A DNA stretch of 64,000 nucleotides, taken from assembly GCA_963700285.1 (NCBI GenBank), contig CAVOXA010000010.1, forward strand, positions 1,280,001 to 1,344,000, written 5' to 3'. The notes beneath the pieces are model-generated. The model saw nothing but the letters and a program-made list of their open reading frames with translations, had not been told where the DNA came from and did no database searches. Origin of the DNA: an uncultured Chloroflexia bacterium. Its GTDB lineage: Bacteria > Chloroflexota > Anaerolineae > JAAYZQ01. Positions 50,743 through 57,922 of this stretch are shown one piece after another. Position 1 is the stretch's first letter. The number at the start of each line of letters is the position of its first letter. A program made the translations under genes and the position numbers.

Positions 50743-53549
50743 ATGACGGACGACCTCGCCAGACGCTTGGCCCAACTTCGAGACGCCTACGAGAGCGGGA
50801 TTCTGGACGACGACACCTACCAGGCGACCATGGCTGCCCTTAGTGCGGAGCCTGACGGGACAGCGATACTGGTTGGCTCTGGGGCCGTCGCCCAAAAGGA
50901 CAGCGTCGCGGCTGGTGCCGGCGGCGTGGCCGTAGGCCAAGACGTGGAAGGTCACATCATCTATGCCGAGCAGGGTGCGACCGTCGTCATCGGCGAGGCG
51001 CCCGGTAAAAATGACCGCCGTGGACCGCGAGTCGGCTCTGGGCCGCTACCTGCACCACGTCATCAGCCGCAACCGCTACTTGCAGTTCCAGGGCATCCGC
51101 TCCGGCGGGCGGCTGGTCCACATCGAGCTGGACCGCATCTACGTCACCCTGCGGGCCACCCGGCAGCGAGTGGTCGCAGGTGGAGGATGACTGGCTGGCT
51201 CACGAGGCGGCCCTGGCGCCCGGCGAGTGCCGCCGCTTGCGCAGGGCACGGCCGTCATGGCCTCCACCGAGACCGTGACCGTCAGCGTCAACGAGGCCCT
51301 GGCCGAGCACTCCCGCCTGGTCGTGCTGGGCGACCCTGGCAGCGGCAAGACGACGCTGCTGCGCTACCTGGCCTTGCTCTATGCCCGCGACCTGGCCGAG
51401 GGTTCGACATCTGGTCCGGGACAAGCTGGGGCTGGACGAGAGCGGCCGACTGCCCATTCTGCTGCCCCTGCGCCAGATCGGCGCCTATCTGCAGGCCCAC
51501 CGTGCTGTCGAGGACGGCACCGAGGGCCACGTCCTGCTGCTCGACTTTCTGTTGCGTACGTTGGCAAATGAGCGCATCACGCTTGCCGGCCGACTTTTTC
51601 GACGAGTGGCTGGCCAGGAGGCAAGGCTGTTATCCTGCTGGACGGGCTGGACGAGGTGGCCGATCCCAACCTGCGGCGGCGGGTCTCCGCCTGGTGGAGG
51701 CCTTCACCCGCGCCTATCCTGACTGCCGCTACGTCGTCACCAGCCGCATCGTGGGCTACACCGGCCCGGCCCGCCTGGGCTGAAGGCTACGCCACGACCA
51801 CCGTGCGCGATTTTACGCATGGCCGACGTAGAGCGCTTCCTGGCCAACTGGCACCGCCTGGTGGCCGTGGGCCAGATGGGACCGGGCGACAGCGCCGAAG
51901 CCTACGCCGCCGAGCAGACCCGACCAATTGCTGCGGGCCATTCGGGCCAACGAGCGCATCCGCGAGCTGGCCATCAATCCCCTGATGCTGACCGTCATCG
52001 CCATGGTCCACCGCGACCGGGTCAAGCTGCCCGACCGCCGGGCCGAGCTCTACGCCGAGGCGGTGGATGTGCTGCTGGGCAAGTGGGAGGAGGCCAAGGG
52101 CGTGCAGGAGGTGCCCATCCTGCGAGGGCCAACCCTTTGACACCGGCGACCGGCGGCTGATGCTGCAAAGCGTGGCCCTGCGCATGCACGAGGCGGAGCA
52201 GAAGGAGGTGGCGTCGGCGACCTGCGCCGCTGGCTGGGCGAGATGTTCCACGAGATCGTGGGCGACTGGCGAGCTGCGGAGCGGGCGGTCAACCGCTTCC
52301 TGCATGTCATCGAGGAACGGACCGGTCTGCTGGTGGCCCGTGGCGAGGGGGTCTATGCCTTCTCGCACCTGACCTTCCAGGAGTACCTGGCCGCCCTGGC
52401 CGTGGCCGCGCGGGACGACTACGTGGCCTACACCCTGACCCGCGTCGCCCGATCCCTGGTGGCGAGAGGTGATCCTGCTGGAAGCCGGCTATCTGAGCTA
52501 TGCAGAGCAAGGAGCGCACCACGCGCTTGATCCGGGCCATCGCCGAACTGGAAGAGGAGCCGGAGCCCTTCACAACCTGGTGCTGGCCGCCGAGTGCCTG
52601 CGCGACGTGGGCGTCGAACCGGGTGGAAGGAAGCCTTTGGAGACAGAGGTGCAACAACGGTTGCGGTCCGAGCTGGAGCGCGGTTCGCCCATCGTAGTTT
52701 CGGCGCGTCTCTGGCAGGTTCAGCCACGCGTTGCCTGGGTTCTGACGAGCGTGGCATCTGGCGGCCGATGGCCGCTGAGCCGCATTGAGCAGTGGCCGAT
52801 TCGGCGTCCGATCGCCGTTTTGGACGAGCCCTACGGCGAGCCGGAGTGGGTTGAGATTCCGGCCGGAGAGTTTTGGATGGGAGAGGAGAGAGACGATTCA
52901 CCGTGTTAACCTTGAGACTTTTCGCATCTCCCGCGTGCCCATCACCAACGCCCAGTACCGACTTTTTTGTGGAGGCAATGGGTCACGAATCACCATACCA
53001 TTGGGAGGAAGGCCGCCCGCCCAAAGGGTCGGAGAGCCATCCGGTGGTCAACGTCACCTGGCACGATGCCCTGGCCTATGCCGCTGGCTGAGCGAGGCGA
53101 CTGGCAAGCAATACTACCCTGCCCTCGGAGGCAGAATGGGAAAAGGCGGCGCGGGGGGACGCGGACAAACGGGTATTCCCCTGGGGCGATGCCTTCGAAA
53201 CGACTCGCTGTAACTGTAGGGAACTAGGATTGGGCAATACCACGCCGGTGGGCATCTTTCCCGAGGGGGCCAGTCCCTACGGTGTTTTGGACTTGAGCGG
53301 CAACGTCTGGGAGTGGACGCGGAGCTTATGGGGGTGACCGAGTACTCGGTTCATACCCGTATGATCCAGAGGGATGGGCGTGAGAACCTGCAGGCCGGAG
53401 ATGACGTCCTCCGGGTGGTGCGTGGCGGGTCGTTCGTCAGTGATCAGAGGGGCGTCCGCTGCGCCTACCGCTTCAGGCACGGCCCGGTCAACAGGCGCAA
53501 CTATGTCGGGTTTCGGGTGGTGGTGGCCCCCGTTACCTCTGGTCTCTGA
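50743..53549 (+). CDS. NACHT NTPase - FGE-sulfatase/C-type-lectin-fold protein 1 (SHOCT-like N-terminus); many frameshifts, possibly a pseudogene
   Basis: [98 protein letters not shown]. Confidence 0.82.
53409..53549 (+). other. DGR-like variable region VR1
   Basis: Colinear with 57707..57847; 18 mismatches in 13 codons, all at codon positions 1 and 2. Confidence 0.85.
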
Positions 53550-53588
53550 CCCTCCGATCTCTGGATCTCTGATCCGCTGTCCTCTGAA

Positions 53589-53607
53589 ATCGCGCCGAAG
53601 GCGCGAT
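53589..53607 (+). promoter_or_regulatory. DGR-type target hairpin downstream of VR1
   Basis: ATCGCGCC-GAA-GGCGCGAT, within a 63-bp post-stop segment identical to the one after VR2. Confidence 0.75.
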
Positions 53608-53624
53608 CGCCGTGGGCGAAATTC

Positions 53625-54055
53625 AGACCTGACAGGTCTCAGAGAGCCGGTTGGTAGACCAGCAGGCCTGCAAAAAGGAGAGCTGCTGGCCGGCGCAGGT
53701 TCTGCTCAAGACCTGTCAGGTCTGAGGGAGCTGGCTGGTAGAGTAGGGGTCCCGAAAAAGGAGAGCTGCTGGCCGGCGCAGGTTCTGCTCAAGACCTGTC
53801 AGGTCTGAGGGAGCTGGCTGGTAGAGTAGGGGTCCCGAAAAAGGAGAGCTGCTGGCCGGCGCAGGTTCTGCTCAAGACCTGTCAGGTCTGAGGGAGCTGG
53901 CTGGTAGAGTAGGGGTCCCGAAAAAGGAGAGCTGCTGGCCGGCGCAGGTTCTGCTCAAGACCTGTCAGGTCTGAGGGAGCTGGCTGGTAGAGTAGGGGTC
54001 CCGAAAAAGGAGATCTGCTGGTCGGCGCAGGCCCTGCTCAAGACCTGACAGGTCT
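53625..54055. repeat. Tandem array of five 83-84 bp units delimited by six AGACCTGWCAGGTCT palindromes
   Basis: Palindromes start at 53625, 53709, 53792, 53875, 53958 and 54041; the three middle units are identical. Confidence 0.92.
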
Positions 54056-57600: not shown

Positions 57601-57847
57601 CCCCTATGGCCTTCTGGACACGAGCGGGAACGTGTGGGAGTGGTGCGGCACCAAATGGTGCGAAAGTTATGAGGAGGAGCCTGACGAGTCTCTGGAAGGG
57701 GATGCCCTCCGGGTGGTGCGTGGCGGGTCGTTCGGCCTTAGTCAGAGGCTCGTCCGCTGCGCCTGCCGCTACTGGTACGGCCCGGACGGCTGGGACTACT
57801 ATGTCGGGTTTCGGGTGGTGGTGGCCCCCGTTACCTCTGGTCTCTGA
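54698..57847 (+). CDS. NACHT NTPase - FGE-sulfatase/C-type-lectin-fold protein 2 (intact, 1049 aa)
   Basis: [99 protein letters not shown]. Confidence 0.93.
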   Translation: MDFTFDTWKEAAANRLQSLGDRLERLKTREGPYLLYGTLCGLSLWPLVEAAQSGQLLPVIMALGGVAGGVGGNLIAEQIQRWQDQGAGVNEETVAAWVVEGAAGNTDLRQALDSILERLEAVQNAEAALAVDDRQWFAGTLRAEMAQLGNLPRFEATLIGSGTIAQDHSVAAGAGGVAVGRDVGGDVVMPGAHQEKHYHPAPTSEQQRQQEKEDLDRYLRNLQRLCNALPLAAMAEDETVHRRAEVTLNRVYISLNTTARVPLTQDGQDRHSRERPGFGDKERPLTALEATAREARLVILGDPGSGKSTFVNHLAYLLAGARLGQGETPDGWPHGPLLPIRILLRELAAVLPGDQDLQGLPAEKRAVRLVDEIWSHLRQETASTYRAAGVHRILEREVDRCQALVIFDGLDEVAPERRGMVRDAVDAFGQLCGENRVLVTCRVRSYSKGVSLGSFASVTLAPFEGDQIEEFVTRWYQALADLGTIKSQEAEKRAKNLHEAVQPMQELARNPLLLTTMAVVHTAQVELPRERARLYQRCVDVLLRRWHKHKVGEAPLLDRLGVSEAELLAALREVAYEAHHRGGTEEEGDLPRSLVLKIMAGHLSGHYGRAEQFLEYVDARAGLLIGRGGAEEPVYSFPHRTFQEYLAGCHLALGGRDFGRRLRRLLAEGDRWALASQLGAEHLLYNVGDVTRVLDASYTLCPVAEPDLEEAWRGVAWAGQFATEVGQRRVEQDEDAPDGGAAFLRRLVPRLVTILAQEKLGPVERAAAGRALGVLGDPRPGFGVDPESGLPDLAWCAVPAGPFPMGSDDEDELAFDNEKPQHEAVIAYDYRIAQYPLTNLQYAAFVSAQGYQERGYWTGAGWKWKGDKTDPRTFGGSFDLPNHPVVGLSWYEAVAFCRWLTEKLRETGGITQNDEIRLPTEAEWEKAARGTGGQTYPWGDEFDPARCNMYDTGIGNTSAVGAFPGSASPYGLLDTSGNVWEWCGTKWCESYEEEPDESLEGDALRVVRGGSFGLSQRLVRCACRYWYGPDGWDYYVGFRVVVAPVTSGL
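57707..57847 (+). other. DGR-like variable region VR2
   Basis: Partner of VR1 (offset 4298 bp, no indels). Confidence 0.85.
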
Positions 57848-57886
57848 CCCTCCGATCTCTGGATCTCTGATCCGCTGTCCTCTGAA

Positions 57887-57905
57887 ATCGCGCCGAAGGC
57901 GCGAT
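57887..57905 (+). promoter_or_regulatory. DGR-type target hairpin downstream of VR2
   Basis: ATCGCGCC-GAA-GGCGCGAT. Confidence 0.75.
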
Positions 57906-57922
57906 CGCCGCGGGCGCAATTC

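What the first reader, a model, noticed from the sequence alone, without database searches (positions are those of the whole stretch)
53408..57922. Two DGR variable regions showing the adenine-mutagenesis codon signature, with no TR or RT in the window
Seen: 53409-53549 and 57707-57847 align without gaps. Codon differences are gtc/ggc, agt/ctt, gat/agt, ggc/ctc, tac/tgc, ttc/tac, agg/tgg, cac/tac, gtc/gac, aac/ggc, agg/tgg, cgc/gac, aac/tac: 18 mismatches, all non-synonymous, none at third positions, while upstream sequence is much more diverged. Established: DGR templates have AAY codons whose adenines are randomised. Inferred template approx. TTC AAC AAT AAT CAG AGG AAC GTC CGC TGC GCC TAC CGC AAC AGG AAC NNC CCG GAC AAC AGG AAC AAC NAT GTC GGG TTT CGG. 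These would be remote targets served in trans.
Basis: partly seen in the sequence, partly recalled or inferred. Interest (0 to 1): 0.88.

Follow-up and report, generated by a model that had tools for sequence, protein, structure and literature searches.

The report
Hypermutated sensors whose mutator was replaced
Two neighbouring genes for likely immune sensors carry tips that differ only where a relative's mutagenesis template has adenines, but in this bacterium the template and enzyme genes found between them in the relative are absent and a small transposase with palindromic repeats sits there instead, so the sensors are probably frozen; they are predicted to signal to a DNA-cutting partner through a shared amyloid-like motif.

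Summary
In detail: 53409-53549 and 57707-57847 differ at 18 places, all codon positions 1-2. A same-genus genome holds the template: all 18 differences fall on its adenines (P 3e-13), and 40 of 42 VR-template mismatches are at adenines. These are real DGR variable regions, ending two NACHT-CLec genes. But they are not plain remote targets. In the relative the syntenic locus reads target-avd-TR-RT-target; here a REP array plus a TnpA-REP-like transposase (54072-54665) stands exactly where avd-TR-RT was, and no cognate template is in this 89%-complete assembly. A second DGR of this genome shows the same replacement, two more have RT-TR deletions. Best reading: cassette lost in place, sensors now frozen (0.6); service in trans from an unassembled cassette stays possible (0.25), since such transposase-flanked targets are served in trans in another genome. 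Extra: both sensors and the upstream HNH nuclease share a motif resembling a published bacterial amyloid signalling class. DGR-diversified NACHT-CLec sensors and decayed DGR loci are published; the recurring VR-hairpin-REP-transposase layout and the amyloid/HNH coupling were not found in my paper searches. New variant of a known kind.

The parts
50125..50727 (+). HNH endonuclease gene, likely effector (start probably 50236 as in the relative)
   Evidence: PADLOC endonuclease-effector and SAVED-HNH models E 5e-19 to 3e-5 over aa 38-151; Pfam HNH_2 E 0.012, below cut-off; Atlas top hit 'HNH endonuclease family' 0.93
50629..50721 (+). Amyloid-signalling-like motif at the extreme C-terminus of the HNH protein
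   Evidence: resembles class C09 of the BASS dataset
50743..53549 (+). Target gene 1: SHOCT-like helices, motif, NACHT, FGE-type CLec; split over several frames (assembly errors or pseudogene, not decided)
   Evidence: tblastn with L172 homologue gives 7 pieces in 3 frames; SHOCT E 0.0026 below cut-off; FGE hits
50875..50967 (+). Same motif near the N-terminus of target 1
   Evidence: Local score 85 against HNH tail, shuffle maximum 60 of 1000
53412..53528 (+). VR1 core (template-homologous part)
   Evidence: 18 mismatches at template A, 1 elsewhere
53529..53612 (+). 3' target tail: IMH-like end, stop, short repeats, hairpin 53590-53606 with GAA loop; identical to the tail of gene 2
   Evidence: (z -4.55 for 53550-53640)
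53625..54056 (+). REP array, 83-base unit x5.2, six 15-base palindromes
   Evidence: family has 43 hits in 25 clusters genome-wide
54072..54665 (+). TnpA-REP-like Y1 (HUH) transposase, standing where the relative has avd-TR-RT
   Evidence: NCBIfam NF047646 E 3e-15, 56 bits, under cut-off 80; Pfam Y1_Tnp E 5e-4; NHFH and YIHQNP motifs
54670..54684 (.). REP palindrome closing the transposase module, directly before the ribosome-binding site of target 2
54698..57847 (+). Target gene 2, 1049 aa, intact: helical N-terminus, motif (55175-55267), NACHT, FGE-type CLec
   Evidence: Pfam NACHT E 1e-9, FGE-sulfatase E 3e-54 at aa 796-1041; motif score 96, shuffle maximum 53
57710..57826 (+). VR2 core
   Evidence: 22 mismatches at template A, 1 elsewhere
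57827..57960 (+). 3' tail of target 2: stop, hairpin 57888-57904, degenerate REP at 57946-57960
58076..60061 (.). Second, unrelated palindromic repeat array, 106-base unit x18.7
   Evidence: family has about 145 hits in 34 clusters

Best explanation
The two stretches are DGR variable regions at the ends of two NACHT-CLec genes, and the avd-template-RT cassette that sits between these genes in a same-genus genome is here replaced by a REP array and a TnpA-REP-like transposase, which likely left the two sensors frozen at their last mutated state. Shown: adenine-only differences against the relative's template; synteny; replacement; no cognate template in the assembly. Inferred: an ancestral cis DGR rewrote both tips by mutagenic retrohoming; REP repeats first entered behind the VR1 hairpin, the transposase module arrived beside the RT, and recombination or cleavage between REP copies removed avd-TR-RT. 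Predicted function: the CLec tip binds an invader ligand, the NACHT domain oligomerises, and the N-terminal motif templates the matching motif of the upstream HNH nuclease into an amyloid-like assembly that switches it on (abortive defence).
For: All 18 VR1/VR2 differences at template adenines, 31 A in 117 bases, P 3.1e-13; 40 of 42 VR-template mismatches at A. Synteny: window 45021-50946 is 81-92% identical to L027 and both target N-termini and tails are in the same order. The relative has hairpin-REP pair-avd-TR-RT-target 2; the window has hairpin-REP array-transposase-REP-target 2, rejoining at the same ribosome-binding site. In the relative the REP pair is flanked by a 26-27 base direct repeat of the VR-avd junction, so REP came after the cassette. 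No cognate TR, RT or avd in G000: blastn, A-tolerant scan of both strands (best non-self candidate 23 non-A mismatches in 108 bases), AAY scan (2 hits, neither cognate), one avd hit only. Independent contigs of two runs of one study bridge the transposase-target 2 junction (54025-56258, 58 differences; 54198-55346, 31 differences). Second case in G000: C10:1496-1498k has an RT stub then REP-transposase where L029 has intact RT-avd-TR before the same downstream gene. Same layout target-transposase-target without RT/TR in G019. Intermediates with cassette plus transposase stub: L297, L176. Motif pairing.
Against: G000 is 89% complete, so a second cassette could be unassembled. In G298 a VR followed by hairpin-REP-transposase has a perfect template on another contig (0 non-A, 20 A mismatches), in G280 nearly so (4 non-A of 22); the relative itself has a remote target (L028). 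The 3' tails of the two genes have no neutral difference in 186 non-variable bases, and one contig of run X1 shows another VR2-like allele with 12 of 13 listed substitutions at template adenines (strain assignment unproven, table cut): both fit recent activity. No contig bridges the left junction. The template used is from another species (1 shared non-A mismatch). The REP-deletion route and the amyloid step are untested; the HNH-plus-motif pair was seen only in this genus among 80 HNH loci.
Confidence: 0.6

Rival explanations
1. The cis cassette is gone but both VRs are still rewritten in trans by a cognate cassette in the unassembled part of the genome.
For: Assembly 89% complete; hairpins and tails intact and identical; transposase-flanked targets served in trans in G298 and probably G280; remote target in the relative; trans activity argued for Thiohalocapsa DGR 4 and 5 (PMC10907252); other VR2-like allele in X1.
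Against: No cognate TR in 7.05 Mb by four searches; the relative has only one copy of this cassette, at this locus; three other cassettes of G000 are also broken.
Confidence: 0.25
2. The population is mixed: some cells keep avd-TR-RT in place (with or without the transposase) and the assembly shows a deletion variant or a collapse across the REP array.
For: Such coexisting intact and degraded variants were seen by long reads in Thiohalocapsa (PMC10907252); run X1 holds contigs similar to the relative's avd-TR and RT; the assembly has many frame breaks; X1/X2 contigs stop at the REP array.
Against: The 83-base array looks like an expansion of the relative's REP pair rather than a collapse; the X1 cassette contigs cannot be tied to this strain (many related DGRs in the run).
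Confidence: 0.1
3. The transposase module is the older occupant and the relative's cassette moved in later; REP sites act as landing pads for DGR cassettes and targets.
For: All three cognate VRs of the relative are followed by the same REP family although it lacks this transposase; VR-hairpin-REP-transposase recurs in other families.
Against: Target-avd-TR-RT-target is a common layout among related loci; the direct repeat around the relative's REP pair dates REP after the VR-avd junction; the second G000 case keeps an RT stub.
Confidence: 0.04
4. Ordinary gene duplication with positive selection, no retroelement.
For: No DGR machinery in the window.
Against: 18 of 18 differences at template adenines, P 3e-13.
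Confidence: 0.01

Closest known systems
Clade 5 (5D) cellular DGRs with STAND/NACHT-CLec targets in multicellular bacteria, incl. degenerate loci of Thiohalocapsa PB-PSB1 (Dore et al. 2024, PMC10907252; abstract, Results parts 1-2, sections 11 part 1 and 18 read)
   Same: Two targets with central NACHT and one C-terminal FGE-type CLec; variation at codon positions 1-2; several DGR loci per genome; repeat arrays replacing RT or TR; domain shuffling of targets.
   Different: There each class kept one complete locus and the intruders were IS elements and MITE-like repeats; here 4 of 5 cassettes with distinct templates are broken, two with a TnpA-REP-like gene and its REPs. RT clade not tested by a tree. 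'Palindrom' and 'IS200' do not occur in that paper's text, 'amyloid' only in a reference.
STAND NTPase-FGS conflict systems with effector-associated domains (Kaur et al. 2021, PMC8195603; passages read)
   Same: NACHT-FGS sensors linked to DGR RT/avd nearby or elsewhere; coupling to a separate effector by a shared N-terminal module.
   Different: The shared module here is a 31-residue amyloid-like motif, not a folded EAD; 'amyloid' occurs only in a reference there.
Bacterial amyloid signalling sequences, class C09 (by order and size probably BASS6) (Dyrka et al. bioRxiv 2020.01.06.895854 sections 7, 9 and passages; PMC8086366 passages and part of supplement 1)
   Same: Motif at effector C-terminus and adjacent collinear NLR N-terminus, 15 bases apart; G/V/A-rich, about 30 residues; near-identical entries C09_s023, s080, s089, s090.
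   Different: Effector is an HNH nuclease (section 9 lists Bell, alpha/beta-hydrolase, TIR2, CHAT, guanylate cyclase); sensor end is a DGR-mutated CLec, not TPR/WD repeats. Motif logos (figure) and bioRxiv supplements not seen.
TnpA-REP/RAYT subclass 2.6 (Quentin et al. 2018, PMC6006769; passages read)
   Same: NH-x-H and YIH[QN]NP motifs, C-terminal SS, atypical palindromes with copies elsewhere in the genome, relatives in Bacteroidota.
   Different: Below the NCBIfam cut-off; location at DGR target ends not described in the passages seen. Nearest precedent: TnpA-REP beside diversifying lanthipeptide genes, causal link withdrawn by the authors (bioRxiv 2020.03.09.984088, abstract).
Bordetella phage BPP-1 DGR target site (Guo et al. 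2011, PMC3240598; abstract read)
   Same: VR followed by a short hairpin needed for retrohoming.
   Different: Hairpin here lies about 60 bases past the template-homologous part; cellular sensor, not a tail fibre; machinery missing.

Membership tests
DGR variable region | Differences from a template confined to template adenines | tested here: met
   40 of 42 mismatches at A, using the same-genus template
DGR variable region | At the 3' end of a CLec-fold gene | tested here: met
   FGE-sulfatase aa 796-1041 of 1049; hits at gene 1 end
DGR variable region | Downstream hairpin/cruciform | tested here: met
   53590-53606 and 57888-57904; its function not tested
Complete DGR | RT, avd and TR at the locus | tested here: not met
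DGR remote target | Cognate TR with RT elsewhere in the same genome | tested here: not met
   assembly 89% complete, so absence is not proven
Active DGR target | Adenine-site variation among reads of one population | tested here: inconclusive
   Only contigs of other samples were available
Clade 5D DGR (Dore 2024) | Two NACHT + single CLec targets | tested here: met
Clade 5D DGR (Dore 2024) | RT falls in clade 5D | not tested
   No reference RT set; RT absent from the window
TnpA-REP (RAYT) | HUH and catalytic Tyr motifs of subclass 2.6 | tested here: met
TnpA-REP (RAYT) | Flanked by palindromes that recur genome-wide; gene not duplicated | tested here: met
   43 hits in 25 clusters; nearest paralogue 51% identical
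TnpA-REP (RAYT) | NCBIfam NF047646 curated score | tested here: not met
   56.3 bits against cut-off 80
TnpA-REP (RAYT) | Cleaves its REP single strand | not testable with these tools
   Needs biochemistry
BASS amyloid signalling pair | Shared motif at effector C-terminus and adjacent collinear NLR N-terminus | tested here: met
   paired also in L125, L172
BASS amyloid signalling pair | Match to a published motif class | tested here: inconclusive
   Close by eye to C09 entries; not scored with the published profile; C09 = BASS6 inferred from order and size
BASS amyloid signalling pair | Bell-domain effector | tested here: not met
   Effector is HNH
BASS amyloid signalling pair | Forms amyloid and templates the partner | not testable with these tools
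   Needs fibril and seeding assays

The most novel reading that the evidence does not exclude
A bacterial 'adaptive' NLR pathway in which DGR-hypermutated lectin sensors fire an HNH nuclease through amyloid templating, and in which domesticated TnpA-REP/REP modules home to the 3' hairpin of DGR targets and act as the off-switch (and mover) that uncouples sensors from their mutator once a repertoire is set.
Probability: 0.25. Interest if true: 0.78.

Novelty: new variant of a known kind. Interest (0 to 1): 0.52.

Why it matters
It gives a matched pair, one genome with the mutator in place and one without, for asking how DGRs are switched off and whether frozen sensors are kept. It points to TnpA-REP/REP, whose role is an open question, as a recurring neighbour of DGR target ends in Anaerolineae-like bacteria. 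It joins two lines of work on immunity in multicellular bacteria, hypermutated NACHT-lectin sensors and amyloid signalling, in one small operon with a nuclease effector that could be tested in a laboratory strain.

Tried and rejected
Cognate template in G000: not found by blastn, A-tolerant scan, AAY scan or cassette search. The intact DGR at C10:226-229k shares 59 bases (93%) with the cognate template but has other ends and its own target: rejected as the server. The third RT (C10:653k) is a group II intron. Degenerate VR pattern: 3 loci in genome contigs, 0 in metagenome contigs, 1 non-cognate VR with a second pattern, 0 in viral contigs. Next-best template among all loci fetched by then had 11 non-A mismatches (L026). 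A general link between this transposase family and DGRs is rejected: 1 of 80 best-matching loci across bacteria had a NACHT-CLec neighbour, 4 of 80 RT-centred loci had such a transposase or a stub within 8 kb; 3 other Y1 genes of G000 are not near CLec genes. REP enrichment at DGR loci was not counted as evidence because the REP families were picked from these loci. Contigs laid on the relative's cassette cannot be assigned to this strain. The TR comparison was faulty and redone; the first motif profile held one wrong seed and was redone. No structure or complex prediction was run.
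Full report
Observation. The two 141-base stretches align without gaps and differ at 18 places, 9 at codon position 1, 9 at position 2, none at position 3, in 13 codons, all changing the residue. Identity continues 63 bases past the stop codon, through a hairpin with a GAA loop (53590-53606; 57888-57904), so that 204 bases carry only these 18 differences; the 30-90 bases upstream are 28-33% identical. Both stretches end FGE-type C-type-lectin domains: gene 2 (54698-57847, 1049 aa) is an intact NACHT-CLec protein; gene 1 (50743-53549) has the same plan but is split over three frames in at least seven pieces. 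Other genes of this assembly are also frame-broken, so errors are likely, but a pseudogene is not excluded.

The template. The window's genome (G000, 7.05 Mb, 89% complete) has no cognate template: blastn finds only the two VRs and 70-82% look-alikes; an adenine-tolerant scan of both strands gives no other candidate under 23 non-A mismatches in 108 bases; a scan for AAY-rich stretches finds 2 places, neither cognate. A search of 60 relatives found four strong matches in the one same-genus genome G001, and a pattern scan of genome contigs returned the locus (L024; record title places it in Chloroflexota). Its template has 31 adenines in 117 bases. VR1 differs from it at 18 adenines and 1 other base, VR2 at 22 adenines and the same other base; all 18 VR1/VR2 differences lie on template adenines (hypergeometric P 3.1e-13). 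The template could give about 8e17 peptides and no stop codon. DGR origin is therefore as good as shown.

What happened to the machinery. Window 45021-50946 is 81-92% identical to the relative's locus, and the two target N-termini and tails come in the same order. The relative reads target 1, VR, hairpin, a pair of REP palindromes, avd, TR, RT, target 2, VR. The window reads target 1, VR, hairpin, an 83-base array with six of the same palindromes (53625-54056), a 197-aa Y1 transposase (54072-54665), one more palindrome, and rejoins the relative's sequence at the ribosome-binding site of target 2. No piece of the cognate avd or RT is left in G000. The transposase has the HUH and Tyr motifs given for TnpA-REP subclass 2.6 (PMC6006769 passages), scores 56 bits on NF047646, under its cut-off of 80, and its palindrome has 43 hits in 25 clusters in the genome. 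In the relative the REP pair is flanked by a 26-27 base direct repeat of the VR-avd junction, which dates the REP after the cassette. Contigs of two runs of one study bridge the transposase-target 2 junction at about 97% identity, so the right junction is not an assembly artefact; none bridges the left one.

It is a pattern in this genome. G000 has one intact DGR (C10:226-229k: target, RT, avd, TR) and three more remnants. At C10:1496-1498k an RT stub is followed by another REP family and a second such transposase (51% identical), where G001 has intact RT-avd-TR before the same downstream gene. At C1:1725k the RT is fused to the 3' end of its template at an 11-base shared word, and at C14:612k an RT stub is fused to a template tail. 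The third transposase of this subfamily lies just upstream of the intact DGR's target, also in G001. Only 1.3% of G000 lies within 4 kb of a CLec gene end.

How general. In the family (23 genomes) 6 have such genes; 5 of 9 genes lie in DGR or target loci, two of them orthologous. G019, another genus, has the same target-VR-hairpin-REP-transposase-REP-target layout with a different transposase (32%) and its own REP, and no cognate TR or DGR-type RT was found in that fragmented assembly. In the class, 57 of 301 genomes matched; of the 29 best loci examined, 3 have a CLec gene ending 150-220 bases upstream on the same strand, all from one family and two orthologous. Against generality: 1 of 80 best loci across bacteria and 4 of 80 RT-centred loci (these are picked for an intact RT and miss replacements). 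So the link is real but lineage-bound; whether the transposase seeks hairpins or just lands in variable islands is open.

Frozen or served in trans. In G298 the VR before the transposase has a perfect template on another contig (0 non-A, 20 A mismatches), in G280 a near-perfect one (4 non-A of 22), in G138 none. The layout alone thus does not decide. For frozen: no template by four searches, the relative's only copy of this cassette is the one at this locus, and three other cassettes are broken. For recent or continuing activity: no neutral difference between the two tails, and a contig in run X1 with another VR2-like allele, 12 of 13 listed substitutions at template adenines, at a depth like that of the transposase-bearing contig (table cut to 40 rows, strain not proven). 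This fits loss after the transposase arrived (intermediates: L297, L176), trans service, or a mixed population as reported for Thiohalocapsa (PMC10907252). I give 0.6 frozen, 0.25 trans, 0.1 mixed.

What the targets likely do. The gene before target 1 encodes an HNH nuclease like those of defence effectors. Its last 31 residues recur near the N-terminus of both targets (scores 85 and 96 against shuffle maxima 60 and 53; DNA identity only 59-70%) and nowhere else in G000. A profile from five copies hits 7 of 80 related RT loci (10 of 80 in a second round; one is the seed locus), 0 of 80 transposase loci and 1 of 80 HNH loci (the seed locus). In L125 and L172 it again ends a short protein and starts the adjacent NACHT-CLec protein. 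This is the arrangement that defines bacterial amyloid signalling pairs (bioRxiv 2020.01.06.895854, sections 7 and 9), and near-identical entries stand in class C09 of the published dataset (PMC8086366 supplement 1, searched and part 1 of 241 read; C09 = BASS6 is my inference from order and size). Amyloid relay in phage defence is shown for another pair (bioRxiv 2024.11.07.622273, passages). The predicted route is ligand binding by the variable CLec, NACHT oligomerisation, templating of the HNH motif, DNA cleavage. None of it is tested; the HNH version was seen only in this genus, and the motif also has a weak YadA-head likeness in one homologue.

Comparison with print. DGR-diversified NACHT-CLec sensors, multiple loci per genome, remote targets and repeat arrays replacing RT or TR are described (PMC10907252; PMC8195603 passages). 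Searches joining DGR with RAYT/REP terms listed no paper on this link, and DGR + amyloid + NACHT gave 2 papers with 'amyloid' only in references. The library lacks most subscription papers, and figures and bioRxiv supplements were not seen. PMC5581495 and PMC12261475 were seen as passages only. One earlier AI note on another Anaerolineae DGR agrees in kind; it is no independent support.

Verdict. Real DGR footprints, known kind of target, locally lost mutator with a transposase in its place, and a plausible amyloid-to-nuclease output: new variant of a known kind, interest 0.52.

Noticed in passing
G000:C1:1725072-1725100 (L003): DGR RT fused to the 3' end of its own template at an 11-base shared word (both read G-F-R); avd and most of TR deleted; two CLec targets upstream.
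   Followed up: partly
G000:C14:612289-612627: RT stub (aa 18-129) fused to a template tail between two CLec targets, the second with a KAP-like NTPase start.
   Followed up: partly
G000:C10:1496415-1497830: RT stub duplicated around REP-transposase plus a restriction-endonuclease-like fragment; relative L029 has the intact cassette.
   Followed up: yes
G000:C10:1263338-1263458 and 1265895-1266070; C15:143300-143570: Further CLec genes with decayed VR-like ends related to known templates; C15 has a hairpin followed by a second VR-like tail.
   Followed up: no
window 50743-57847 versus L024/L027: N-termini of both targets keep their places but the NACHT-CLec bodies are shuffled: the relative's target 1 ends in the CLec that here ends target 2 (77%).
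   Followed up: partly
window 50125-50235: A partial copy of the signalling-like motif precedes the HNH domain; in the relative it lies in a separate short ORF.
   Followed up: no
window 58076-60061: 106-base palindromic repeat x18.7, a family with about 145 hits in 34 clusters, some arrays of 20-30 copies.
   Followed up: no
L024 VRs and L028: The relative's three VRs differ from its own template in the last AAY codon and the next G-F-R codons; sequencing errors or a template boundary.
   Followed up: no
window 37356-37437, 60205: Further copies of the transposase's palindrome, one as an inverted pair 67 bases apart (REPIN-like).
   Followed up: no
L125, L172, L157, L356: Short helical proteins that look like Bell domains (label recalled, no Pfam hit) next to NACHT-CLec DGR targets, three with the shared motif.
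   Followed up: partly
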